A stretch of DNA of 64,000 nt from an uncultured virus (IMG/VR IMGVR_UViG_3300042691_017862) (taxonomy: Duplodnaviria > Heunggongvirae > Uroviricota > Caudoviricetes). The stretch lies in the IMG/VR virus record IMGVR_UViG_3300042691_017862; one strand, 5' to 3'. Positions 12,849 through 47,802 of this stretch are shown here, one piece after another. Position 1 is the first letter of the stretch. Each line of letters begins with the position of its first letter. Below the pieces are notes generated by a model. It did no database searches. It had not been told where the DNA came from and was given only the letters and a program-made list of their open reading frames with translations. Both the position numbers and the translations under genes were made by a program.

Positions 12849-13111
12849 TCAAGAAGAATATCCTTATTGCAATTACTACACTAGAAAACAAGTCAGAAGA
12901 AACTGTACTAGAACTCAAGTCTACTAACGATCGCACAGAGATTGTATTAGAGCCTAGACTTACAAAGCTAGTACTGAACATTGATGAGCTAAAAGATGCT
13001 ATTAAAGAGGTTGAGAACTTCTCTATTGCTAATCCTAGTGAAGCGCAAAAAAAGCAAGTTGAGGTAGTAGAAAATTCAATGATTGTTGAAATTGGTGTTG
13101 ACGACGAGTAG
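12845..13111 (+). CDS. Hypothetical protein
   Basis: ORF track; ATGA-coupled to upstream lipoprotein. Confidence 0.65.
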   Translation: MIKKNILIAITTLENKSEETVLELKSTNDRTEIVLEPRLTKLVLNIDELKDAIKEVENFSIANPSEAQKKQVEVVENSMIVEIGVDDE

Positions 13112-13126
13112 ATGATTTGATAGACT
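13098..13126 (+). promoter_or_regulatory. sigma70-type promoter upstream of structured RNA and nrdJ
   Basis: TTGACG-17 bp-TAGACT; predicted start coincides with the RNA closing stem at ~13132. Confidence 0.7.
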
Positions 13127-13131
13127 ATATA

Positions 13132-13274
13132 TGTGAAGAGTTGGCAAGCTGTGGCATTAGGTTCGTAGCGTATATAAGACCACTAGAAGCACACTATCTG
13201 CCCACCTAATAAAAGGTGTTAGAGGTTCCGTGCGGCAGACGTTGGGACACCAGATTCGCAATCTGCTCTTCACA
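13132..13274 (+). ncRNA. Structured tRNA-like RNA / 5' leader of nrdJ
   Basis: Closing stem TGTGAAGAG/CTCTTCACA; T-arm-like CAGA-TTCGCAA-TCTG stacked on it; internal stems CTGTGG/CCACTAG and TCTGCCCAC/GTGCGGCAGA. Confidence 0.65.
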
Positions 13275-13300
13275 AAATTTTACAACAAAGGAGAAACAAC

Positions 13301-15073
13301 ATGACATTTAAGCCAACAGGATTTTCTGAAACAATCTTCAAAGATAGATATGCTCTTACATCTTCAGAATCGTGGACAGAAGCTTGTCTTCGTATTGCTA
13401 GTCAAATGGCATTAGCGGAACCAGTGGAAAAACGCGCTCATTACGAATCTACATTCAATGAAATTCTAGTCAATAACCTATTCGTTCCGGGTGGTAGAAT
13501 CTGGTACAATTCCGGTCGTAACAATCCACAACTATTAAATTGTTTTGTATTAACTAATCAACTTGACTCTAAAGAAGGCTGGGGAGAAGTAGCAAAGCAA
13601 ATGATCGTTACTTCAATGACTGGTGGTGGATGCGGTATTGACTTCAGTGATGTAAGACCTCGCGGTGCTCTCATTGGTGATCAAAAGGGAGAATGCCCCG
13701 GCCCTGTAGAATTGATGCGCCTTGTTGATAATTGCGCAAAACCTGTACGAGCTGGTGGACAAAGACGAGTGGCTCTTATGTTTTCACTTGACGCTGATCA
13801 TCCAGACATTGAAGAATTCCTAGACGCAAAACTTACTAAAGGTGAACTTACTCATGCAAACGTATCTATCAGATTGAAGAATGCTAATAAGTTTCAGAAA
13901 GCAGTACAAGAAGACGGAGAATGGGAACTGAGCTGGAAAGGCAAATACAAAAAGACAATCAAAGCCAAAGATCTTTGGAACAAGATTGTTAAGAATGCCT
14001 ATAACAGTGCAGAACCCGGACTTCTTAATTGGGAGATGATTGAAAATGAAAGTAATATCGGATATATTGAAGAATTGGTCACAACTAACCCTTGCGGGGA
14101 AATTGCTCTTAGTTCTTATGACTGCTGTTGTCTTGGTCATGTTGTTCTCCCTCGATTCGTATCAAATTCAACGATCGACTATGCGAAACTTGCTGATACT
14201 GTACGGACTGGCGTTAGGTTTCTTGATAACGTACTTTCAGTTAATAGCTATCCTCTTCCGGAAATGAAAGAGAAGTCACACAAATTGCGCCGTATTGGAA
14301 TGGGCACAACTGGACTTGCTGATACACTAGCTATGCTTGGGCTAAAGTATGGTTCAGAAGAAGGTAACAAGTTTATCGACAAACTATACAAATTCATTGC
14401 TAAAGTTGCGTATGAATCTTCTGTAATGCTTGCTGTAGAAAAGGGAGCATTCCCAGCTTGTAAACCAGAGAAGCACATTGAATCAGGATTCATGAAAAGA
14501 ATGCCACATAAGATCCGCTCATTAGTTAAAGAACACGGTATTAGAAATTGCGCTATTCTTACACAAGCTCCTACTGGTACTGTATCTATTCTTAGTGGTA
14601 ATTGTTCTAGTGGTATTGAGCCAATGTTTAGCCCAGCATATGAACGCCGTTACTGGGACAAAGACGTTCGTAAAACAGAACTTGTATTTCATCCTTTGTT
14701 TGAAGAATTTATGAAGGATGGAAAAGATGTAACTCACTTTGTCGGAAGTCATAATATCTCAGTACAACAACATATGGAAGTACAAGCAATTGTGCAGAAG
14801 TGGGTAGACAACGCTGTATCTAAGACTATTAACATGGCTAATGATTACTCAATGGATGACATGGAAAAGCTTTGGTTAGAATATTTACCTAGACTTAAGG
14901 GTACTACGTTCTATAGAGATGGAACTAGAGGGTATGTAAGAGAAGACGGTACAGTGGAAGAACCACCATTAAAGTCCTTGACAATCGAAGATGCTATGGT
15001 AAAATTCAAAGAGAAGCATTCTACTGGGCTTGAGTTCGTGGACGATTGCCCCGGCGGTGTGTGCAGCCTGTAA
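13301..15073 (+). CDS. nrdJ: Class II (adenosylcobalamin-dependent) ribonucleotide reductase
   Basis: PGGR, LLNCFV, GGGCGIDFS, TNPCGEI, RRIGMG, APTGTVS, C-terminal CPGGVC; no adjacent beta subunit gene. Confidence 0.9.
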   Translation: MTFKPTGFSETIFKDRYALTSSESWTEACLRIASQMALAEPVEKRAHYESTFNEILVNNLFVPGGRIWYNSGRNNPQLLNCFVLTNQLDSKEGWGEVAKQMIVTSMTGGGCGIDFSDVRPRGALIGDQKGECPGPVELMRLVDNCAKPVRAGGQRRVALMFSLDADHPDIEEFLDAKLTKGELTHANVSIRLKNANKFQKAVQEDGEWELSWKGKYKKTIKAKDLWNKIVKNAYNSAEPGLLNWEMIENESNIGYIEELVTTNPCGEIALSSYDCCCLGHVVLPRFVSNSTIDYAKLADTVRTGVRFLDNVLSVNSYPLPEMKEKSHKLRRIGMGTTGLADTLAMLGLKYGSEEGNKFIDKLYKFIAKVAYESSVMLAVEKGAFPACKPEKHIESGFMKRMPHKIRSLVKEHGIRNCAILTQAPTGTVSILSGNCSSGIEPMFSPAYERRYWDKDVRKTELVFHPLFEEFMKDGKDVTHFVGSHNISVQQHMEVQAIVQKWVDNAVSKTINMANDYSMDDMEKLWLEYLPRLKGTTFYRDGTRGYVREDGTVEEPPLKSLTIEDAMVKFKEKHSTGLEFVDDCPGGVCSL

Positions 15074-28948: not shown

Positions 28949-30487
28949 ATGGATAATACAGAAAAGCTTGTATTTGGTAAAGCGAATATCAAAGGTGTTG
29001 TAGGTCTTGAAGTAGCTGACGATATAGCAGAAGTCTTTGTACAAGATAAAGATGGTGGTATAACTTCTGTATTTGTGCCTAATAGATTCTGGATTCTTTC
29101 TAATAAAAATATCAACGGGAAGTTCGCGAAGCTTAAAGGTGATCTCCATTATAAATGGGGAACACAATTTAAGGATAGAGCAACTTGGTCAAAGTGTCGT
29201 GGTGCTTGGAAAAAGAGCGACGACATTTTCAGCGTGTGGAATGCAGAAGAGTCGCTAATGATGAAGGACGGTATTACCTTCTATCAAGACTTGAAACTCA
29301 AAGACGTATCACTTCTCAGTTGGGACATCGAGACTACAGGACTTGATGGTACAGCTTCCGACGCTAAAGTACTCCTCATCTCAACTACGTATAGAGATCA
29401 ACACAAACAAGTTAATAAACTGTTTTCATATGACGAATATGAAACAGAAGCTGATCTTCTAGACGCATTCTCAGAGTACATTCAAGAAACCAATCCTTCA
29501 TTAATTCTTGGACATAATATCTTCGCATTTGACTTTCCGTATATGCAAGCTAGAGCAGACGCTTCCGGTACGCAACTAGCGTGGGGCCGTGATGGTAGTG
29601 CGGTCGAGTTTGAAGACTATGAATCCAAGTTTCGCTTAGACGGAACTCGCGACTTACTATACAAGAAGGTACGAGTCTATGGACGAGAAATCTGTGACAC
29701 ATTCTTTCTAGCTAATTCTTACGATGTATCTAAGAGCATTGAGTCATACGCTTTGAAGCCTATGATCAAGCAATTAGGACTTGAGAAAGCTGGTCGTCAG
29801 TATTATGATGCTGGTGACATCAGAAAGAACTACAAGAATCCAGTTGAGTTTACCAAGATCAAACAGTACGCAGAAGATGACGCAGAAGATCCAGTGAAGT
29901 TATGGGATTTAATGGGACCATTGTATTTCAACATGGCGACGATGTTTCCAAAGCCTTTTACAGAGATCCTACTAAGTGCTAGTGGTGGTAAGATCAATGG
30001 AATGATGTGTCGAGCTTACCTACAAGATGGACATAGCCTACCAAAAGCAGATGAGAGACAAGATTACATGGGAGCACTCTCTTTTGCAGTGCCGGGAATC
30101 TATAGCAATTGTTTTAAGATTGACTTGGCAGCTCTGTATCCTTCCATCATGATTGAGTATGAAGTATTTGACGATACAAAAGATCCAAACGGATATTTGT
30201 TACAGTTTGTTAAGATTTTTAGAGCAAAGAGACTTGAGTACAAGAAGCTTGCTGCTGATACAGGAGAGGACTACTGGAGAGAGATGGATACAACAGCGAA
30301 GTCTATCCTAAACTCCTTCTACGGCTTCTGTGGAACCGGTGGACTTAACTTCAACTCTTTTAGTTGTGCAGATTTTATTACAGCTAAAGGTAGGGAGATT
30401 TTGGAGTATACCATTAAGTGGGCCTCAGGTAGACCATTGACAGACTTTGTGAAAGATGAGACAATGGATGAGGAGGAAAGCGCATGA
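28949..30487 (+). CDS. Family B DNA polymerase, N-terminal subunit (3'-5' exonuclease, motifs A and B)
   Basis: WDIETTG, GHNIFAFDFPY, YAEDDA, KIDLAALYPSIM, KSILNSFYG, ITAKGR; ends in acidic tail before motif C. Confidence 0.92.
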   Translation: MDNTEKLVFGKANIKGVVGLEVADDIAEVFVQDKDGGITSVFVPNRFWILSNKNINGKFAKLKGDLHYKWGTQFKDRATWSKCRGAWKKSDDIFSVWNAEESLMMKDGITFYQDLKLKDVSLLSWDIETTGLDGTASDAKVLLISTTYRDQHKQVNKLFSYDEYETEADLLDAFSEYIQETNPSLILGHNIFAFDFPYMQARADASGTQLAWGRDGSAVEFEDYESKFRLDGTRDLLYKKVRVYGREICDTFFLANSYDVSKSIESYALKPMIKQLGLEKAGRQYYDAGDIRKNYKNPVEFTKIKQYAEDDAEDPVKLWDLMGPLYFNMATMFPKPFTEILLSASGGKINGMMCRAYLQDGHSLPKADERQDYMGALSFAVPGIYSNCFKIDLAALYPSIMIEYEVFDDTKDPNGYLLQFVKIFRAKRLEYKKLAADTGEDYWREMDTTAKSILNSFYGFCGTGGLNFNSFSCADFITAKGREILEYTIKWASGRPLTDFVKDETMDEEESA

Positions 30488-30687: not shown

Positions 30688-31403
30688 ACAATCATAACTT
30701 CCGCATCGTTGGTGGAGATACAGACTCCATCATGTTCTGTAAACCAGATATGGCCCCGTTCTCAAAAGAAGAACAGGACAATCTTCTTCTTGAGATCAAT
30801 TCGCTTTTACCAAAAGAGATCAAGTTTGCCAACGATGGGATTTTTTCTAAAGTAGTTTACTTGAAACCCAAGAACTACATCATGATCGATGAAAAAGGTA
30901 AGAGAAAGATGAAGGGGTCATCCCTTAAGTCTTCTACTCTAGAACCTGCTCTTAAAGAAATGCTAGGAGAATTCATCGAGACACTTCTTAATGATCAACA
31001 AGAACTTCTACCAGCAATCTACGACAAGTATATCCAACGTGCTTTGAACATCACTGATATCAAACCTTGGACAACGAAGAAGACCTTATCCCCAACGACA
31101 TACAAGAGCGAGCGTAAGAATGAGACTGACATTGTAGACGCAGTGAGAGGCACCGAGTACAAGTCAGGAGATCGTGTATACTTGTATGCTAAGTCGGAAG
31201 TGATTGAATTAGACGCGTTCTATAAGTCAGGAGCCAAGAAGGGACAGAGGAAGACTAAGAAGGTCAAGGTATACGGACTACAGGAAAACTTCGATGGAGT
31301 TTACTGTAAACAAACATACGTAGACAAAGTTCTTGCAACTACAAAAAGATTTTCTACTGTAATAGATACATCAATATTTAAAAAATACGAAGTTAAAGAA
31401 TGA
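30684..31403 (+). CDS. Family B DNA polymerase, C-terminal subunit (motif C, thumb)
   Basis: [21 protein letters not shown]. Confidence 0.9.
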
Positions 31404-31909
31404 TAACACAAGAAGAACTTAAACAATTATTACATTATGATCCTAAAACTGGTATATTTAAGTGGATTAAAACTAGATGCCATTTAGCAAAAAAAGGAAA
31501 TATTGCTGGATATAAATCAAAAGCTGGTTATGTTCAAATAAGAATAAAAAAGAAATTATACTATTCACATAGGCTGGCATTTCTATACATGACAGGAACA
31601 ATCCCAGAATTTGTTGATCATATAGATAGAGATCCAACTAATAATAAATGGTCAAATTTAAGAAGATGTACATCAAATCAAAATAATAGAAATAGTAAAA
31701 TTTTTATAACAAATACTAGTAATTATCGAGGTGTATCTAGAATAAAAAATAGTAAGAAAAATCCTTGGTCCGCTCAAATACATGTAAATAATAAATCAAA
31801 ATATTTAGGATGTTTTTCAAATCAAGAAGATGCAGCGAGAGCATACGATAAAGCCGCTATTAAATATCATGGTGAATTTGCCACTCTTAATTTTCCCAAA
31901 GAATCTTGA
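31400..31909 (+). CDS. HNH-AP2 homing endonuclease
   Basis: [35 protein letters not shown]2 motif [29 protein letters not shown]. Confidence 0.9.
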
Positions 31910-33658: not shown

Positions 33659-35119
33659 GTATACAGGGATATCAATGCAAAAAAGATATCATAACAGATT
33701 GTCGATGCGATGAATGTCGTCCTTCTATTTTAACACAACTGTCTTCCGAACAATATGAACGTGTTACAAATCCAGAAGAGTACCTAAGAAAAAAGTTAGA
33801 ACATCTATATAATATAATAGAACTTTCAAAGAGTTGTATTAGTTTATACGATAAAGCATTTGAAGATACTGGAAATGACTACTCACATCTTCTAAGATTT
33901 CAAATGGCAACATCTTTGAAAGAAGAGATTGAAAGACTCGAGAAAAATAATGAAGATTAAGATAGGAAAAACAAACGAAGAACTTATGGAGCTATTTAAA
34001 TGGCACCCTTGGTTTGCTTGGTATCCTCTCATTGTAGACGGACATTTTGTATTGTTTAGTAAGGTTAATCGAAGACTTGTGAATATTGGATTTAGTCATC
34101 AACTATCATGGAAATACGAGATTATTTAATATGAAAAAACGTGAGCTAATAGTACTAGGAGTTGCTAGTAAGATTATCATTTCTTGTTGTGACTCCGGTG
34201 TATCCCCTGTTCCGTTTGATGCGGCCCAGACAATAGCGGAGGATGTTCTAAAATATCTAGAAGAAATTGGTACATTGAAATTGGAGCTTGAAGATGAAGA
34301 ATAAACTAAAACCATTGGATATTAAAATAGTAGACGCAACAAAATCGGATTCATTAGAAGTCACTCTCAATCCTTACCAGTTCTGGGTTTTAATTGGTAC
34401 TATTTTATTTGTTGGGGTATTAATATGGACATAAAATTTGAACAACGTACTGTAACTTCATATCCCGGATTACATTACGAAACAATTCAAGTACCTTTTT
34501 GGGCTAAGTCGATTCAAATTTCCACATCAGGTAAGTACAAGTTTATAATGGAAAATTCAGAGGGAAAGCATTTTAACACAGCAATCATTCCACCAAATGG
34601 TAGTGCAAGTTTGTACAAGAGCTATCTTCCAAGTGATGCCAAATTCATTTCATTTTTGAGTATGGAACCAAATCATTCTTTTGATATATATGTTGTATTT
34701 AATAATATAGGAGTTGAAAATGCGTAAACAAGAACGTGACCTTTGTGATAGTTTAGATGTCTTTGAAAAATGGGCTTCTCGTGGTCTTATCTCGGGACAA
34801 ATCAAAGAGAAGTACAATACTACAAGATGGTATGCTTATCTTAGTGGAGAATTTTCCTTACACAATATTTTTTATCCGGGACATTATTATAACAGATTTC
34901 CAAAGTGGCTTCGTAATCTAGATCGATATGTATTTATGCCAATTTTTAAATACACTGGTATTAACATTATAGTTAGAAAGTGGAAGTACTATTGCTATAC
35001 ACAAGCTTATAAAGAAGTCTTAACAAAGTACCCAGATGTCCAACATTGTATTAACTATACAGAGATCCTTGATCAGAATGTATTATCAGCGTATAGGAAA
35101 TATAGGGAAGAAAATAAAC

Positions 35120-35148
35120 TTGACATAGAAGATGAAGAGTAATAGACT
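35120..35148 (+). promoter_or_regulatory. sigma70-type promoter for the tRNA locus
   Basis: TTGACA-17 bp-TAGACT. Confidence 0.7.
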
Positions 35149-35176
35149 ATAAGAGTGTAATTGACACAAAGTTTTT

Positions 35177-35253
35177 TGGGAAGTAGCTCAGTTGGTAGTA
35201 GCAAATCGCTGTTAACGATTAGGTCGCGTGTTCGAGTCACGCCTTCCCAGCCA
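35177..35253 (+). tRNA. tRNA-Asn (GTT) with encoded CCA
   Basis: Acceptor TGGGAAG/CTTCCCA; anticodon arm AATCG-CTGTTAA-CGATT; T arm GCGTG-TTCGAGT-CACGC; 3' GCCA. Confidence 0.92.
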
Positions 35254-35257
35254 AAGT

Positions 35258-35401
35258 TTGAGAGCGGCGTTGGAAGCTGTTGGTATGTAAAACGCAGGCA
35301 AATAGCCGAAGCCAACTGGAGAAACGCACAACATTTAGTTGGAGGTTAGCACGTTTGATGTACACGAGTGCGCTATGTAGAAGTCGCGATCTACCTCTCA
35401 A
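35258..35401 (+). ncRNA. Enlarged tRNA-like structured RNA immediately 3' of tRNA-Asn
   Basis: 7-bp closing stem TTGAGAG/CTCTCAA stacked on GTAGA-AGTCGCGA-TCTAC; internal GTTGG/CCAAC, GCTGTT/AATAGC and TAGC/GCTA stems. Confidence 0.6.
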
Positions 35402-35410
35402 TATTATTTT

Positions 35411-36352
35411 ATGAAAGTATATCGCAAAGGAACAGAACTAATATACAGACACTTCAACTTTGTATTACATCAAGGCGGTCTCGGAGACCTCATCGCTGGA
35501 CTTCCCGCTATTAAATTTGTTCTAGATTTTCACAAAAACATTATCATCAATTTATATTGTCATGATTATGCTGTAGACCTTTGTACAGTAGTATTTCAAG
35601 AGTATAAGAACATTACCATAAGAGGTATGTCTTCGTATGACAAGACAGTAAACGAAAGTTTACCGGCTAGATCTCCATACGTACATAAGATTTCCAATCT
35701 ATCAATGAATATGGTTGATCAAGCTTTTTTATCAATGGTTGGAACTATCCCAGAAGATAAATACAAAAGCTACCTTAAACTAGATCCAATTGACGTAAGC
35801 CATTTCAACCTACCAGAAAAGTATGCTGTTGTAACGACTGGCTTCACTAGCGAGACACGCGAGTGGCTTCCTCAATCTGTTAACGAAGTCAGTGACTATC
35901 TTGTCGCACAAGGAATCACACCGGTCTACATCGGAAAAAGCTACACAAAAGCATACAAAGATACTGGCATCACTGGAAACTTCAAAGCGGATTATACAAA
36001 AGGAATCAATCTAATAGATAAGACGAATCTATTTGAAGCCCATTCTATTATGAACGATGCTGTGGTGACTCTGGGACTTGACAACGGGCTTATGCATCTA
36101 CATAGCATGGGAACAGGAGAAGCTATCTGGGGATTCACAACGGTAAGACCAGAACATAGACTACCACCTAATACAAATCATCTAGTTGTAGCTCCGACAT
36201 CGGAAGAATTATCTTGTATCTTCTGTCAAAGTAACATGACATTTGCTACGGGTGAAGTTTGTTTTACTAAATGTTTCTATAAAGACTACAAGTGCTTAGA
36301 ACTTATGACAAGCGATAAATGGATTGCAAAGTTGAAGGAGTTGGGAATATGA
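35411..36352 (+). CDS. Glycosyltransferase family 9 (heptosyltransferase-like)
   Basis: GGLGDLIAGLP, REW, NLIDKTNL, LGLDNGLMHL; Cys-rich C-terminal CIFC...CFTKC...CL. Confidence 0.8.
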   Translation: MKVYRKGTELIYRHFNFVLHQGGLGDLIAGLPAIKFVLDFHKNIIINLYCHDYAVDLCTVVFQEYKNITIRGMSSYDKTVNESLPARSPYVHKISNLSMNMVDQAFLSMVGTIPEDKYKSYLKLDPIDVSHFNLPEKYAVVTTGFTSETREWLPQSVNEVSDYLVAQGITPVYIGKSYTKAYKDTGITGNFKADYTKGINLIDKTNLFEAHSIMNDAVVTLGLDNGLMHLHSMGTGEAIWGFTTVRPEHRLPPNTNHLVVAPTSEELSCIFCQSNMTFATGEVCFTKCFYKDYKCLELMTSDKWIAKLKELGI

Positions 36353-37002
36353 AAATATATGGACCAGATTCAGATTTTGATAAAGTAATGGAAAGCGTAA
36401 CGAAAATGGTTAAAGAACGAGAAATTTATATGAATTACGATCAAACTTGGGGACAAAACACCGGAGAAGAAACTCGCAAGTCTTGGAAAGATAAATACTG
36501 GTCGGGATTCTTTGAAAAGTATATGAGTGGAAATGGACTTGACATTGGATACGCTGGATATATAAAAGATGTTCATCCTGTTTTACCAGCAGCAACTGGT
36601 ATTGATCTCAGTTATCCCGGATACGACGGACGTATCCTTCCATTTCCAGATGAGTCACAGGACTATGTATACTCTTCCCACTTCTTAGAGCACGTAACTG
36701 ACTATAAGAACGCAATACAAGAACAGTTTCGCGTTACTAATAAAGGTGGACACATCATTATCGTTGTGCCACATAGAGATTTGTACGAGAAGAAGACAGC
36801 ACTTCCTTCTAGATGGAACGCAGATCACAAACGCTTCTATACCTCAAGTTCTTTGCTCAAAGAAATAGAAGATAGTCTTCCTATTAACTCATATAGAATT
36901 CGACACCTATTAGAAAATGATACTGGACATGATTATAATGATGGACCAGATGTTCACGGACGTTGGAACTATGAGATTGAAGTAGTACTGGAGAAACTAT
37001 GA
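36349..37002 (+). CDS. Class I SAM-dependent methyltransferase
   Basis: GLDIGYAG, LPFPDESQDYVYSSHFLEHV, RVTNKGGHIIIVVP; start could be 36349 or 36430. Confidence 0.85.
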   Translation: MKIYGPDSDFDKVMESVTKMVKEREIYMNYDQTWGQNTGEETRKSWKDKYWSGFFEKYMSGNGLDIGYAGYIKDVHPVLPAATGIDLSYPGYDGRILPFPDESQDYVYSSHFLEHVTDYKNAIQEQFRVTNKGGHIIIVVPHRDLYEKKTALPSRWNADHKRFYTSSSLLKEIEDSLPINSYRIRHLLENDTGHDYNDGPDVHGRWNYEIEVVLEKL

Positions 37003-39048: not shown

Positions 39049-39573
39049 ATGCCAGTACGGGACGATGAAATATTACGACTTACGAAGTATGCACAAGGAC
39101 TTGGCCTCAAGGTTAAGTTCCTTACTCGTTCCCGTAAATCTCCCGCCGCTGAATGGACACTAGATGGTACAGAGATTACTGTATATACAAATAGTAGTAC
39201 TACAAAGATTGATATCATTCTATCATTAATACACGAACTTGGTCATCATGTCTGGTTCATCCACGAAAAGAATAGACAGCCCGATCTTAAATTCGAAGAG
39301 GCTATCGAGCGACAAAACTTACATGAGAGTGAGCTATCAGATACACCAGCACCTAAAGCATTACGTAAAAAGATACTAAACACCGAAATAGCAGGAACCC
39401 AATGGTGGGATGTTATTTATCGAGATACTAATTGTAAATTTCCAAAATGGCGACTTGAGGCAAATAAAGAGTTTGACATCTGGGTTTACAACGTATATTA
39501 TTTAACTGGACACTTTCCTTCTAAAAAAGAGGGAAGAGCAAAGTTTAAGGAAATTAAAAGGAAATATAAATGA
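39049..39573 (+). CDS. HEXXH metallopeptidase-like (ImmA/IrrE-type) protein
   Basis: SLIHELGHH. Confidence 0.6.
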   Translation: MPVRDDEILRLTKYAQGLGLKVKFLTRSRKSPAAEWTLDGTEITVYTNSSTTKIDIILSLIHELGHHVWFIHEKNRQPDLKFEEAIERQNLHESELSDTPAPKALRKKILNTEIAGTQWWDVIYRDTNCKFPKWRLEANKEFDIWVYNVYYLTGHFPSKKEGRAKFKEIKRKYK

Positions 39574-40391
39574 GTAAACCAAAACGTAAAAAAAGTCCTC
39601 GTAACATTGTACAAAAACCAAAAGCAAAGGTTCTTGTATATGATATCGAGACTGCACCGCTTCTTTCCTATACTTGGGGAATCTGGGAGCAAAATGTACC
39701 ATTGAACATGATACAAAGCGATTGGTATATTCTAAGCTGGTCTGCTAAATGGCTCGGAGACCCTGACTCCAAGATCATGTATATGGATCAACGTAATGCT
39801 AAAGACATTGAAGATGACAGTAAGCTACTAGAAGGTATCTGGAAACTCCTAGACCAAGCTGACGTTGTAATTACACAGAACGGAAAGTCGTTTGATGAAA
39901 AGAAACTGAATGCTCGTTTCATTCTAAACGGAATGGGACCGCCATCTTCTTACGAACACATTGATACAAAACGTATTGCTAGTCGTAAGTTTGCATTCAC
40001 TTCTAATAAGCTAGAATACTTAACTGAAAAGCTTTGTACTAAAAAGAAGATGAAGCATAAGAAGTTTCCCGGTTTTGAACTTTGGAAAGAATGTCTAAAG
40101 GGTAATAAAGAAGCCTTCAAAGAAATGGAAGCTTATAATAAGATGGACGTACTAAGTTTGGAAGAGCTATACAATAAACTCCAACCTTGGGCTAAAGAAG
40201 CAGACTTCCAACATATTACCGGAGAAGTGCAATGTGCTTGTGGTAGCAGACATTTCCACAAGAAAGATAAGAAAGCTACTAAGAGTGGACTATACCAAAG
40301 ATATACATGTCAATCTTGTGGATCTACATTTAGAGATAAAACAAATCTAAGAGAAAAAGGATTCTCTAAAAAACTTCTTGTAAAAGAATAA
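39570..40391 (+). CDS. RNase H-like/DnaQ-fold exonuclease with C-terminal zinc ribbon
   Basis: YDIETAP, TQNGKSFD, HIDT, YNKMDV; CACG...CQSCG. Confidence 0.85.
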   Translation: MSKPKRKKSPRNIVQKPKAKVLVYDIETAPLLSYTWGIWEQNVPLNMIQSDWYILSWSAKWLGDPDSKIMYMDQRNAKDIEDDSKLLEGIWKLLDQADVVITQNGKSFDEKKLNARFILNGMGPPSSYEHIDTKRIASRKFAFTSNKLEYLTEKLCTKKKMKHKKFPGFELWKECLKGNKEAFKEMEAYNKMDVLSLEELYNKLQPWAKEADFQHITGEVQCACGSRHFHKKDKKATKSGLYQRYTCQSCGSTFRDKTNLREKGFSKKLLVKE

Positions 40392-41777: not shown

Positions 41778-42071
41778 ATGTCACGAAGTAAAAAACGCAG
41801 CATCGATGAAATACAAGAACTTAAACGAATCATCAAAGACCGCGATCAAACAATCAAGTCGCTCGAACGACAATTAAAGAAGCTTAACAACGAATTAGAT
41901 CCTCCTACTAAAAAGAAAGCTCCTAAAAAAGAGCAACCAAAAGAAGAAGTCTCATCTAATAAATGTCAGCAATGTAAAACAGGGAAGACAAAGACTTCTG
42001 AACTAGGAAGCATTCGTACCATTACATCCTGTGATACTTGTGACTATCGTCAAATTCTCAAACGTGGCTAA
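41778..42071 (+). CDS. Coiled-coil and zinc-ribbon protein
   Basis: N-terminal heptads; CQQC...CDTC. Confidence 0.7.
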   Translation: MSRSKKRSIDEIQELKRIIKDRDQTIKSLERQLKKLNNELDPPTKKKAPKKEQPKEEVSSNKCQQCKTGKTKTSELGSIRTITSCDTCDYRQILKRG

Positions 42072-42396
42072 GAAAAAAACAAAGAAATACAATCTAAAAT
42101 CTCGCATTACTAGCGCACTTCGTCGTATATGGTTCTATGGTCCTCAACGTAAAGAAGCAATGAAGATTGCTAAAGAACGTGGATACACTTGTGCTATTTG
42201 TAATAAGCCAAATCCCAAACTCCAAATCGATCATATAGTTCCTGTAGTCCCACTAACAGGATTTGATAACTGGCAAGCATATATTGACAGACTCTTCGTT
42301 GGTCCAGAAGGACTGAGAGCACTTGATGCTGAGTGTCACAAAACTCATACAGCAATCCATTCTGGAATTCGTAAGAAAAATAAGAAATCCAAATAA
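42064..42396 (+). CDS. HNH endonuclease
   Basis: CAIC, LQIDHIVPV, LRALDAECHKTHT; probable GTG start at 42064. Confidence 0.75.
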   Translation: MAKKKTKKYNLKSRITSALRRIWFYGPQRKEAMKIAKERGYTCAICNKPNPKLQIDHIVPVVPLTGFDNWQAYIDRLFVGPEGLRALDAECHKTHTAIHSGIRKKNKKSK

Positions 42397-42402
42397 TTTC
42401 CC

Positions 42403-42431
42403 TTGACAAGAAGTATGCCAGCTTGTATCAT
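42403..42431 (+). promoter_or_regulatory. sigma70-type promoter, probably leaderless
   Basis: TTGACA-17 bp-TATCAT; ATG at 42438. Confidence 0.65.
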
Positions 42432-42437
42432 ATTAGT

Positions 42438-42869
42438 ATGACTACACGGACTAAAATCATTACATCAGTTGTGCTACTAGCTATTAGCTTTGCTTCTGGT
42501 AGATTTCTATCTCCCACTAAAACAAAGACTGAGATCAAAACTGTAGAAGTTGAAAAGATCGTTGTCAAAGTTGAACGAGTAGTAACTACCATCAGAGAGA
42601 AGCCAGACGGAACTAAAGAGACTGTAATCGTTGCTGACACAAAAACTGACAGCAAGACTAACAGTGTAACTACAGACGATCTAAAAGAAGTTACAAATTC
42701 TAGAAGCAATTTAAATGTCTCTGTATTAGCTGGATCTGGATTCCCTATTAGTGGAACATCTCTAGTATACGGAGCAAGTGTTACCAAACAAATCATCGGA
42801 CCGTTTACAGCTACAGCATGGGGATTATCTAATCTCAGTGGTGGAATTGGTATTGGTTTAAACTTTTAA
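42438..42869 (+). CDS. Membrane-anchored protein with C-terminal beta-strands ending in Phe
   Basis: N-terminal hydrophobic helix; ends GIGIGLNF. Confidence 0.7.
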   Translation: MTTRTKIITSVVLLAISFASGRFLSPTKTKTEIKTVEVEKIVVKVERVVTTIREKPDGTKETVIVADTKTDSKTNSVTTDDLKEVTNSRSNLNVSVLAGSGFPISGTSLVYGASVTKQIIGPFTATAWGLSNLSGGIGIGLNF

Positions 42870-46309: not shown

Positions 46310-47802
46310 TACTTAATATCTCCACGTTTTCTTAGATATGCTTCTGCTTTTGAATAGTCACCTTTAAAGTGAGCATTTGCATATTCCATGATATCAGGAT
46401 CTTGTCCAGTTTGTCCAGAAGATTCTTTTTGATCTTTACCTTTTAAATACTCACCAGTATCAATTAAGTTATTAGCTTGGAGGAATTGCTGATACTCTTC
46501 TGGGTAATGTTTTTTAGCAAGAGCCATACTAGCAACCGCACCTTGGCTGAGTTTAGTATTCTCAGCTTTTGCGTAATCTCTTGCTCTAGCTGTTACTTTT
46601 AAGATATCTTTAATAAACTGACCTTGTTCTCTCGGATTCAATTTACTAGTCATGTAGTCCATGACATTCGTTGCATCCATTTTAACGTTTTTAGGAACGA
46701 GTTTTTCAAGAGTTGCTTGAGCAGGAACACCAGCACCTGATAATAATTTATTTAACTCGATTGCGCCCTCTACAATTTGTAGTTTGTTCTTACTATCTAA
46801 TGTTTTTGGATCAATAGCATCGACATCTTTTGCTGTAAAGTTTGCATCAACACCCATTGTTGCGAATATATTATTAGCTTGATCTAATCTACTGCGTAAC
46901 TGATTACCACGAACTCCACCTGCAGTTTGTACTTGTCTAGCACCTTGTGTTAATGCTCTTGCTGCTTGCGTTTTCTCATTACGATCAAACATCATTTCTT
47001 TTGTTAATTTTCTATCTTCAGCTCTTTGAGCAGCTTCAATAGATCTAGCATCTCTATTTTCTTTAGATATTGCCATTTGTTGAAGTTGTGGAAATCTCTT
47101 CTCGAGGTCAGCAGCAGAAACATTGTCTGGGATATTGATACCAAGACCAGCTTGTTTCATCATAGCACGAGCTAATGTTCTAGCATGGTTTGAAGCAGCA
47201 CTATCTGGATCGTTCTTCTCTTTTTCACCACGAGCTTGGAAATCTTCAATTAGACTTTCTGAATCTTTCTTTTGTTGTTCGTTCATTTTAACAACATCAG
47301 AAATATCTGCCGGCTTTGAACCATGTGCTGCGCTCATTGATCTAGCACCTAGTGCTGCAATATTTCTAAGATCGGCAGCATCTTTTAGACGTTGTGATTC
47401 AGCCTGAGCTTTACGAAGATTTTCAACAGTATTCTCCGTAAATCCTTCGCTTGCTGGTTCTCTAACCATTTCAGGAGATACAGAAGTCGGCTGAGAAGAT
47501 CTAACCGTAGACATAGAAGAAGACATTTCCGATGTAGGAATTTCTACTGGGACTTCTTTTATTGGTTCTGGTTGTTGTTCTGTTTGTTCTAATACAGAAG
47601 GTTTATAATCTTGTATATTAGCCATCGGTCCCATACCAATTGGAGAAGGAGCTTGTGGTGCTGGTGGTACCGGATGCGGAGAAGGAATAGCTTCTGGTAG
47701 TATTTCTTCTTGTTGATCGTCAACAGAACTACTATTTCTTCCTAGAAGTTTTCTTAGAGTTTCTGGATCATTTTGAGAAAGAATATCCTGAAGTGTCGGC
47801 AT
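46309..47802 (-). CDS. Putative internal virion protein
   Basis: Pro-rich N-terminus, helical body; position in operon. Confidence 0.55.
   Translation of the reverse strand: MPTLQDILSQNDPETLRKLLGRNSSSVDDQQEEILPEAIPSPHPVPPAPQAPSPIGMGPMANIQDYKPSVLEQTEQQPEPIKEVPVEIPTSEMSSSMSTVRSSQPTSVSPEMVREPASEGFTENTVENLRKAQAESQRLKDAADLRNIAALGARSMSAAHGSKPADISDVVKMNEQQKKDSESLIEDFQARGEKEKNDPDSAASNHARTLARAMMKQAGLGINIPDNVSAADLEKRFPQLQQMAISKENRDARSIEAAQRAEDRKLTKEMMFDRNEKTQAARALTQGARQVQTAGGVRGNQLRSRLDQANNIFATMGVDANFTAKDVDAIDPKTLDSKNKLQIVEGAIELNKLLSGAGVPAQATLEKLVPKNVKMDATNVMDYMTSKLNPREQGQFIKDILKVTARARDYAKAENTKLSQGAVASMALAKKHYPEEYQQFLQANNLIDTGEYLKGKDQKESSGQTGQDPDIMEYANAHFKGDYSKAEAYLRKRGDIK

What the first reader, a model, noticed from the sequence alone, without database searches (positions are those of the whole stretch)
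35258..35401. Second ~144-nt tRNA-like RNA next to tRNA-Asn, apparently related to the nrdJ-leader RNA
Seen: a 7-bp acceptor-like stem plus a 5-bp T-like arm (12 bp coaxial, as in tRNA) with greatly enlarged internal arms, starting 5 nt after the tRNA CCA. It matches the 13132 RNA in length. It also shares the 5' segment (GTTGGAAGCTGTTGG at 35269 vs GTTGGCAAGCTGTGG at 13140) and the 3' arm (AGAAGTCGCGATCT vs AGATTCGCAATCT). Inference: the two may belong to one uncharacterised phage ncRNA class, for example decoys for tRNA-targeting defence nucleases or processing signals for downstream mRNAs.
Basis: partly seen in the sequence, partly recalled or inferred. Interest (0 to 1): 0.72.

Follow-up and report, generated by a model that had tools for sequence, protein, structure and literature searches.

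The report
Folded RNA module behind phage tRNA-Asn
A 144-base non-coding, probably folded RNA piece sits right behind a phage tRNA gene; it resembles the long-known but unexplained small stable RNAs of phages T4 and T5, and its claimed kinship to the reductase-gene leader does not hold up.

Summary
The stems are real. A 7-bp closing helix (35258-35264/35395-35401) abuts a 5-bp hairpin (35377-35381/35390-35394), 4 nt after the CCA of tRNA-Asn. The shape alone is near chance level: 13 such shapes in the window against a mean of 8 in shuffles. The fold energy is unremarkable (z -0.10).

What makes the element real is its one reachable relative, an IMG/VR contig. It holds a homologous 111-nt copy with the closing helix unchanged and two compensatory pair changes in the hairpin. 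Indels of 29, 7 and 2 nt rule out a shared ORF.

That relative carries further closed modules head to tail around the same tRNA. The layout matches T4 tRNA-Arg/rnaD/rnaC and T5 RNA1/RNAI/RNAIII/tRNA-His.

The link to the nrdJ leader at 13132 is not supported: local alignment is reached by 31 of 500 shuffles, and the covariance model gives 1.2 bits. The two loci do share a sigma-70-like promoter (TTGAC-17-TAGACT).

The element matches no tRNA, tmRNA or Rfam family. My best reading is a co-transcribed tRNA-handle module that serves as a processing or stabilising signal, or a small stable RNA. I found no expression data. The family has two members.

The parts
35120..35148 (+). Sigma-70-like promoter TTGACA-17-TAGACT. 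The predicted start is near 35155, where a small hairpin GTGT-AATTG-ACAC (35155-35167) begins.
   Evidence: 10 of 12 consensus matches. The 10-mer ATAGACTATA occurs exactly only here and at 13120 in the window. The same promoter stands in the relative at L001 1896-1924.
35177..35253 (+). tRNA-Asn (GTT) with encoded CCA.
   Evidence: ARAGORN. RF00005 at 61.7 bits. Identical in the relative at L001 2048-2124.
35254..35257 (+). 4-nt spacer AAGT between the CCA and the element. It marks the end of the block that is near-identical between the two phages.
35258..35401 (+). The element (W), 144 nt, GC 0.48: closing helix, variable multi-branched interior, and a hairpin abutting the 3' strand.
35258..35264 (+). 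5' strand of the closing helix P1 (TTGAGAG).
   Evidence: Pairs with 35395-35401. Identical in the relative. Pair probabilities are 0.42-0.99 in the excised RNA.
35269..35297 (+).
   Evidence: Alignment A3. W against E: score 20, reached by 13 of 500 shuffles.
35301..35309 (+). AAATAGCCG, a 9-nt motif identical in W and D. A shorter version (AAATAGCCG without the first A's context) recurs in module C of the relative.
   Evidence: Its complement is not enriched in the window: 12 hits against 11.1 expected.
35377..35394 (+). T-arm-like hairpin: stems GTAGA/TCTAC with an 8-nt loop AGTCGCGA, which is not a canonical T-loop.
   Evidence: The relative has GTGGT-AGTGGCGA-ACCAC, so two pairs changed on both sides. 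Only 0.03% of simulations with 5 random substitutions give this pattern.
35395..35401 (+). 3' strand of the closing helix P1 (CTCTCAA).
35402..35410 (+). A/U-only spacer TATTATTTT before the start codon. It holds no Shine-Dalgarno sequence.
   Evidence: TATT.TTT also follows copy D in the relative.
35411..36352 (+). Downstream gene, a glycosyltransferase family 9-like protein of 313 aa, followed by a methyltransferase gene at 36319-37002.
   Evidence: Pfam. No terminator-like site in 34600-35700.
13132..13275 (+). The comparison element (N), the leader of the class II-type RNR gene. It starts at the predicted transcription start of the promoter at 13098-13126. It is not shown to be related to W.

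Best explanation
W is a real, non-coding, structured RNA module. It is transcribed from the sigma-70-like promoter at 35120-35148 together with tRNA-Asn and the glycosyltransferase/methyltransferase genes. It belongs to the same kind of thing as the small stable RNAs that phages T4 (rnaD, rnaC) and T5 (RNA1, RNAI, RNAIII) encode head to tail with their tRNAs, but it shows no detectable homology to them.

Proposed mechanism (inferred, not shown). The 7+5-bp coaxial handle mimics the acceptor/T-arm minihelix of a tRNA. Host tRNA-processing enzymes would therefore cut at its 5' edge (35257/35258), by RNase P, and in the A/U spacer behind it. This would free the tRNA's 3' side. It would leave W either as a separate stable RNA or as a base-paired 5' cap that protects the downstream mRNA. 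Only the handle is constrained; the interior is free to change by insertions.
For: 1. Homologue. Alignment to L001 2286-2396 covers the whole length at 75% column identity.
2. Pairing is kept. The closing helix is unchanged and the hairpin has two compensatory double changes; 24 of 24 cells pair. Four of the five differences in the 29-nt 3' block are these compensations. That pattern arose in 0.03% of simulations with 5 random substitutions.
3. Non-coding. Indels of 29, 7 and 2 nt separate the two copies.
4. Composition. GC is 0.48 against 0.35 in the flanks, as for the tRNA.
5. Array context. The relative has, behind the same promoter: module B (closing stem GTGTGACG/CGTCACAC), tRNA-Asn, a tRNA 3' fragment, module C, copy D and module E. 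Spacers between C, D and E are 1-7 nt. Module C is a cloverleaf-like five-way junction with z = -3.57; 0 of 200 shuffles fold as well. Modules are present or absent as whole cassettes between the two phages.
6. Same layout in annotated phages. T4: tRNA-Arg, then 1 nt, rnaD (119 nt), 6 nt, rnaC (139 nt). T5: RNA1 (144 nt), RNAI, RNAIII and tRNA-His, contiguous. The T5 RNAs all fold with a closing 5'/3' helix.
7. No terminator-like site and no promoter-like site lie between the tRNA, W and the gene.
8. From established knowledge (recalled, not from a call): the acceptor/T-arm minihelix is a sufficient RNase P substrate, and a base-paired 5' end protects mRNA from RNase E.
Against: - There are only two distinct sequences. 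The tool's own shuffle control for covariation is therefore uninformative: 127 of 500 shuffles reach the observed value.
- Fold energies of W and D are no better than shuffles (z -0.10 and -0.29).
- The interior helices are not conserved between W and D. The consensus fold is only -13 kcal/mol.
- In longer transcript context the handle's pair probability falls to 0.02-0.16. In D an alternative 4-bp hairpin outcompetes the 5-bp one, which has probability 0.06.
- The hairpin loop (8 nt, AGTCGCGA) is not a T-loop. There is no CCA. No tRNA, tmRNA or Rfam model matches.
- There is no sequence likeness to T4 or T5 stable RNAs.
- The shape alone is common: 13 in the window against about 8 expected.
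- The overall W-D identity (75%) is about the background divergence of the two phages, so conservation level by itself proves little.
Confidence: 0.45

Rival explanations
1. W is simply the structured 5' untranslated region of the glycosyltransferase operon. It would be a stabiliser or translational regulator whose closing helix ends 9 nt before the AUG. It would not be recognised by tRNA-processing enzymes and would not be released as an RNA of its own.
For: - The closing helix ends 9 nt before a start codon that has no Shine-Dalgarno sequence.
- In the relative, module E also closes about 14 nt before the same start codon, and W contains an E-like 29-nt stretch. Both phages therefore keep this sequence upstream of the gene.
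- This phage's other promoters (N; the relative's B and its RNR leader) are also followed at once by closed structures at the predicted transcript 5' end.
Against: - In the relative, copy D is separated from the gene by module E, so adjacency to the start codon is not conserved.
- Head-to-tail packing with 1-7-nt spacers looks like a tRNA-type array, not like a leader.
- The interior, where a ligand or protein site would lie, is the least conserved part.
Confidence: 0.25
2. W is a decaying, functionless remnant of a former tRNA or stable-RNA array that is carried along in the transcript.
For: - Fold energy is no better than shuffles.
- The interior is rearranged by large indels.
- A bare tRNA 3' fragment lies next door in the relative.
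- LUZ24-type phages, whose tRNA-Asn region is similar, have ordinary tRNA-Tyr and tRNA-Pro in this position.
- The family is tiny.
Against: - Two compensatory double changes and an untouched 14-nt closing helix, at about 25% background divergence, argue for selection on pairing.
- There is no residual likeness to any tRNA tested.
Confidence: 0.15
3. One reading: W and the nrdJ-leader element N are two members of one phage RNA class, for example decoys for tRNA-cleaving defence nucleases.
For: - Both are about 144 nt, with GC 0.48.
- Both are closed by a 7-9-bp helix with an abutting 5-bp hairpin.
- Both lie behind the same promoter type.
- They share the short strings GTTGG.AAGCTGT.GG and TCGC.ATCT.
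Against: - Local alignment is not significant: 31 of 500 shuffles reach it.
- The covariance model of W+D gives N 1.2 bits. N did not appear at E<=10 in the 165-kb search.
- The shared 5' string lies in a stretch that W's own homologue lacks.
- The relative has a different leader behind the same promoter.
- Neither element resembles tRNA-Asn in sense or antisense.
Confidence: 0.05
4. There is no RNA element at all: chance inverted repeats in an intergenic spacer.
For: The shape occurs 13 times in the window against about 8 expected. Fold z is -0.10.
Against: - The compensatory pattern.
- The GC island.
- The homologous copy at the same position in a diverged phage.
- The array context.
Confidence: 0.08

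Closest known systems
Phage T4 small stable RNAs rnaD (species 2, 119 nt) and rnaC (species 1, 139 nt), NC_000866 71053-71171 and 70908-71046
   Same: - They are encoded directly behind a tRNA (tRNA-Arg, gaps of 1 and 6 nt), on the same strand, and are 119-139 nt long.
- rnaC has an acceptor-like end, an abutting T arm and enlarged inner hairpins.
- Their function is still unknown (passages read in PMC3014915 and PMC9697503).
   Different: - There is no sequence similarity: W against rnaC is reached by 232 of 300 shuffles, and against rnaD by 210 of 300.
- rnaC has a canonical T-loop (TTCGAAT) and a very stable fold (z -4.57). W has an 8-nt non-T-loop and z -0.10.
- Expression of W is untested.
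Phage T5 stable RNAs RNA1 and RNA2 ('tRNA-like stable RNA with unknown functions') and RNAI, RNAIII, RNAIV, RNA2H (NC_005859)
   Same: - RNA1 (144 nt), RNAI (107 nt), RNAIII (106 nt) and tRNA-His form a contiguous array.
- All fold with a closing 5'/3' helix and a multi-branched interior.
- RNAIII and RNAIV lack a canonical T-loop, like W.
   Different: - There is no sequence similarity: 86 to 274 of 300 shuffles reach W's scores.
- The T5 RNAs are experimentally known stable species according to their annotation. W is a prediction.
tRNA (RF00005) and the tRNA-like domain of tmRNA
   Same: A 7-bp closing helix stacked on a 5-bp hairpin with no nucleotide between them, lying next to a genuine tRNA.
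   Different: - No CM or ARAGORN match.
- No T-loop, no CCA, no anticodon arm, no tag ORF call.
- The third pair of the closing helix is G-C, not G-U.
GOLLD and ROOL large ornate RNAs
   Same: They are structured RNAs of unknown function, often near tRNAs and in phages, and possibly co-transcribed with them (passage read in PMC5737381). The relative's whole non-coding array is about 560 nt.
   Different: There is no Rfam match at E<=10. W is far smaller, and the array is modular rather than one conserved fold.
RNase P-processed phage RNAs such as P1/P7 C4 and P4 CI (recalled from memory, not checked in a call)
   Same: They are small phage RNAs whose maturation uses a tRNA-like handle.
   Different: Those are about 77-nt antisense repressors with known targets. 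No Rfam hit to W appeared.

Membership tests
tRNA (RF00005) | Covariance-model score at or above 29 bits, or an ARAGORN call | tested here: not met
   Only 35177-35253 is called. No tRNA-clan hit on 35258-35401 even at E<=10 in an 801-nt search.
tRNA (RF00005) | 7-bp acceptor stem coaxial with a 5-bp T stem | tested here: met
   35258-35264/35395-35401 and 35377-35381/35390-35394, directly abutting.
tRNA (RF00005) | 7-nt T-loop (TTCRANY) and a 3' discriminator plus CCA | tested here: not met
   The loop is 8 nt, AGTCGCGA. The helix is followed by TATT.
tmRNA | tRNA-like domain plus tag reading frame, as detected by ARAGORN or Rfam | tested here: not met
   No tmRNA in the window. No Rfam tmRNA hit.
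T4 rnaC/rnaD and T5 stable RNAs, as sequence families | Detectable sequence homology | tested here: not met
   Smith-Waterman against shuffles: all comparisons of W are unremarkable. Neither T4 RNA is in Rfam; only a 17.5-bit tRNA-Sec hit falls on rnaC.
Phage tRNA-cluster stable RNAs, as a kind | Encoded head to tail with a tRNA on the same strand in one transcription unit, about 100-170 nt, with a closed 5'/3' helix | tested here: met
   4-nt spacer after the CCA, 144 nt, and no promoter-like or terminator-like site between. Compare T4 and T5.
Phage tRNA-cluster stable RNAs, as a kind | Accumulates as a discrete stable RNA after processing | not testable with these tools
   No RNA run holds the stretch. 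The laid runs are DNA contigs.
   31 of 500 shuffles reach the alignment score. CM score is 1.2 bits. No further members in 165 kb of related DNA or in three related phage records.
GOLLD / ROOL | Match to RF01998 or RF03087 | tested here: not met
   No hit.
tRNA-programmed hairpin cassettes (lead from earlier scan notes) | One arm antisense to the neighbouring tRNA, the other arm copying its 3' end | tested here: not met
   W against tRNA-Asn: 102 of 500 shuffles reach the sense score and 241 of 500 the antisense score.

The most novel reading that the evidence does not exclude
W and the modules B, C, D and E of its relative are members of an uncatalogued set of cassette-like structured RNA modules. 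They ride in phage tRNA transcription units and are swapped in and out as whole units. They would use a minimal tRNA handle (closing helix plus abutting hairpin, here with a non-T-loop) to borrow the host's tRNA-processing enzymes. This would punctuate the transcript and cap the downstream mRNA, a phage version of the 'tRNA punctuation' known from mitochondria. It would also give a function to the unexplained T4 and T5 stable RNAs.
Probability: 0.25. Interest if true: 0.6.

Novelty: new variant of a known kind. Interest (0 to 1): 0.35.

Why it matters
Small stable RNAs encoded with phage tRNAs have been known in T4 and T5 since the 1970s, and they still have no function (PMC3014915 and PMC9697503, passages read).

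This locus adds a case in a freshwater phage where only the tRNA-like handle is held constant. The interior is rebuilt, and whole modules come and go between two close relatives. That pattern points to the handle, meaning processing or end protection, as the selected feature. This is directly testable with RNase P assays.

On its own the case is thin: two sequences and no expression data. It is a data point rather than a discovery. It also corrects the suggested link to the RNR leader.

Tried and rejected
**Rfam**
- The whole-window gathering scan gave nothing. It even missed the tRNA that the regional scan finds at 61.7 bits.
- Regional scans at E<=10 gave only noise for W, N and the relative's array.
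- The relative's RNR leader has a weak freshwater-2 hit (14.3 bits against a cut-off of 49.9). The paper's supplement that describes this motif could not be read.

**Searches for more homologues**
- INPHARED blastn: only the tRNA part matches, in 164 records. Nothing for the nrdJ leader or for the relative's array.
- tRNA 3'-end pattern: IMG/VR gave 1 locus, which is the relative. JGI metagenomes gave 2 loci, the relative and a copy identical to the window.
- Hairpin plus helix pattern in IMG/VR: 60 loci, of which only 1 (the relative) is genuine.
None was convincing, and the scan did not even reach the known relative, so it is incomplete.
- GTDB genomes: 2 chance hits inside coding sequence.
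- Glycosyltransferase protein and a 2-sequence profile in IMG/VR: only the relative.
- CM R1 on three related phage records: only the relative.

**Other attempts**
- No whole genome is held for the window.
- Sequencing runs: no RNA holder is listed. Four DNA runs were laid and showed only identical fragments and other organisms' tRNAs, with no variants.
- The complement of the conserved AAATAGCCG motif is not enriched in the window.
- MITE-like reading: rejected, because the closing stems of the modules differ from one another and no target duplication is visible.
- Terminator reading: no terminator-like site.
- Small-ORF reading: the indels are not multiples of three.

Full report
**What is there**

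The window is an AT-rich (about 36% GC) phage genome piece. It carries replication and nucleotide-metabolism genes on the + strand and virion genes on the - strand. It holds one tRNA gene, tRNA-Asn(GTT), at 35177-35253 (RF00005 61.7 bits).

Four bases (AAGT) after its CCA, TTGAGAG (35258-35264) begins. It pairs with CTCTCAA (35395-35401). The hairpin GTAGA-AGTCGCGA-TCTAC (35377-35394) directly abuts the 3' strand. Nine A/T bases later the ATG of a glycosyltransferase family 9-like gene follows (35411-36352), and then a methyltransferase gene.

A sigma-70-like promoter, TTGACA-17-TAGACT, stands at 35120-35148. No terminator-like site lies in 34600-35700. So the tRNA, the element (W) and the genes are most simply one transcription unit.

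**Is the shape more than chance?**

Not by itself.
- A descriptor scan (7-bp closing stem, directly abutting 5-bp hairpin, total 85-170 nt) finds 13 hits in the window on both strands. Twenty block shuffles gave a mean of 8.05, range 4-12.
- W's minimum free energy (-37.6 kcal/mol) equals that of shuffles (z -0.10; 85 of 200 fold as well).
- The handle is favoured in the excised RNA: helix probabilities 0.42-0.99 and hairpin about 0.48. It loses to other pairings when 79 nt of coding sequence are added (0.02).

**Evidence that it is real**

W has GC 0.48 against 0.35 in its flanks.

The one reachable relative is IMG/VR contig 3300032053_000118 (G001/L001). Its glycosyltransferase is 81% identical in protein. 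It carries the same tRNA-Asn and, further downstream, a 111-nt copy (D, L001 2286-2396).
- D aligns with W over its whole length at 75% column identity. Indels of 29, 7 and 2 nt exclude a shared reading frame.
- The closing helix is identical.
- The hairpin is GTGGT-AGTGGCGA-ACCAC, so two of its five pairs changed on both sides and still pair. All 24 of 24 cells pair. Slid controls pair at 37-50%.
- With two sequences the tool's shuffle control cannot be significant (127 of 500).
- In the 29-nt 3' block, four of the five differences are these compensations. That pattern arose in 0.03% of 2 million simulations of five random substitutions.

The interior is not structurally conserved. The consensus energy is -13 kcal/mol, and D on its own has z -0.29.

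**Context in the relative**

The last ~150 nt of the upstream gene, the promoter and the tRNA are almost identical in the two phages: 3 differences in about 150 columns, and 59 of 59 positions identical just before the indel. The rest of the upstream gene is about 80% identical in protein. This looks like a recently exchanged block that ends exactly at AAGT.

Within and after this block the relative has extra closed modules:
- B: a 95-column insertion right at the predicted transcription start, closed by GTGTGACG/CGTCACAC with an abutting 7-bp hairpin; z -1.14.
- A bare tRNA 3' fragment with T arm GGTGG-TTCGACT-CCACC.
- C: 128 nt, a cloverleaf-like five-way junction. It has a 7-bp closing helix, two unpaired bases, three inner arms and an abutting hairpin with a 7-nt loop; z -3.57, 0 of 200 shuffles fold as well.
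- D, the copy of W.
- E: 96 nt, z +0.5.

Spacers between C, D and E are 1-7 nt.

W's extra 29 nt (35269-35297) resemble the core of E: score 20, reached by 13 of 500 shuffles.

None of the modules resembles tRNA-Asn in sense or antisense. None resembles LUZ24's tRNA-Tyr or tRNA-Pro, which follow a similar tRNA-Asn in that phage group.

**The claimed link to the nrdJ leader (N, 13132-13275)**

N is a closed structure: helix probability about 1.0, hairpin about 0.9, z -1.75. It starts at the predicted start site of the promoter TTGACG-17-TAGACT at 13098-13126.

What N and W's locus truly share is this promoter type. The 10-mer ATAGACTATA occurs exactly only at 13120 and 35142 in the window.

Homology is not supported.
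- Local alignment of N and W is reached by 31 of 500 shuffles.
- A covariance model of W+D (R1) finds W (187.5 bits) and D (142.7 bits). Otherwise it finds only two noise rows (10.3 and 10.2 bits, E 3.5 and 3.7) in 165,351 bases of the window, the relative, parts of two other related phages, and the T4 and LUZ24 loci.
- R1 gives N 1.2 bits with filters off.
- In the relative, the same promoter and ribosome-binding site precede an unrelated ~95-nt leader and a different, divergent class II-type RNR gene.
- Two 170-kb phages whose RNR is 67-71% identical show no N-like or W-like sequence.

**What it is like**

No tRNA, tmRNA or other Rfam family matches.

The layout matches two annotated precedents.
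- T4 encodes rnaD (119 nt) 1 nt after tRNA-Arg, and rnaC (139 nt) 6 nt further on. rnaC has an acceptor-like end, a canonical T arm and enlarged inner hairpins.
- T5 encodes RNA1 (144 nt, annotated as tRNA-like), RNAI, RNAIII and tRNA-His contiguously. All its stable RNAs fold with a closing 5'/3' helix, and some lack a T-loop.

Reviews and a 2022 transcriptome paper still call the T4 RNAs' roles unknown (passages read in PMC3014915 and PMC9697503). GOLLD and ROOL are also noted as tRNA-adjacent and possibly co-transcribed (passage in PMC5737381).

W shows no sequence similarity to any of these RNAs. It is the same kind of thing, not a family member.

Earlier notes of this scan list many similar tRNA-handle RNAs in other phages. 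I used them only as leads, and I checked the T4 and T5 annotations myself.

**Mechanism**

Shown: the position, co-orientation, conserved handle, variable interior and cassette-like gain and loss.

Inferred: the handle mimics the acceptor/T-arm minihelix. From recalled knowledge, that minihelix is a sufficient RNase P substrate, and U at -1, as here, is favoured. A cut at 35257/35258 would release the tRNA's 3' side. It would give the downstream RNA a base-paired 5' end, which is known to protect against RNase E. A cut in the A/U spacer would instead release W as a stable RNA.

The data cannot tell these two outcomes apart. They also cannot exclude a plain leader function or neutral decay.

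**Verdict**

This is a real but thinly supported structured RNA module of the T4/T5 stable-RNA kind, with a non-canonical handle. It is not related to the nrdJ leader. The family has two members, and I found no expression data: no RNA run is listed, and the laid DNA runs gave no variants. The interest is moderate to low.

Noticed in passing
window 13098-13300; L143 1400-1520 (- strand) = G001 about 46950-47090: The RNR gene leader N starts at the predicted start site of a promoter that is nearly the same as the tRNA-Asn promoter. In the relative, the same promoter and ribosome-binding site precede an unrelated ~95-nt leader and a different, divergent class II-type RNR (RNR-II insertion domain at 26.8 bits). 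That leader has a weak freshwater-2 (RF02980) hit of 14.3 bits, mostly over the ribosome-binding-site part.
   Followed up: partly
L001 1932-2040, 2125-2160, 2158-2285, 2397-2492: The relative's tRNA-Asn unit holds four more non-coding modules: B, a bare tRNA 3' fragment, C and E. C is a very stable cloverleaf-like 128-nt RNA (z -3.57) that matches no tRNA or Rfam model.
   Followed up: partly
window about 35000-35257 against L001 about 1770-2128: A block running from the 3' end of the upstream gene through the promoter and tRNA-Asn is almost identical between two phages that are otherwise about 80% identical. It ends exactly 4 nt after the CCA. This looks like a recent recombination block with the tRNA at its edge.
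   Followed up: partly
L167 14545-14693 (-) and about 14310-14365 (-) = G002 about 42300-42690: A 172-kb phage whose RNR is 71% identical carries two odd tRNA-like genes. One is about 118 nt with a canonical acceptor and T arm and an enlarged interior; ARAGORN calls it a tiny tmRNA, and RF00005 gives 23.9 bits. The other is about 52 nt and lacks an anticodon arm (28.6 bits).
   Followed up: no
window 28949-30484, 31400-31906, 39570-40388, 42031-42393: DNA polymerase functions are spread over separate genes, with HNH endonuclease genes nearby. This may be a split or invaded polymerase.
   Followed up: no
window, whole: The whole-window Rfam scan at gathering threshold returned no match at all. 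Yet the tRNA-Asn scores 61.7 bits (cut-off 29) in a regional scan. A blank from the whole-window scan should therefore not be trusted.
   Followed up: yes
window 35107-35254 against LUZ24-type Pseudomonas phages (L170 696-851): The tRNA-Asn and about 70 nt upstream of it match the LUZ24 group at about 73% identity. There the tRNA is followed by ordinary tRNA-Tyr and tRNA-Pro, each after a 4-5-nt spacer, in the position that W occupies here.
   Followed up: partly
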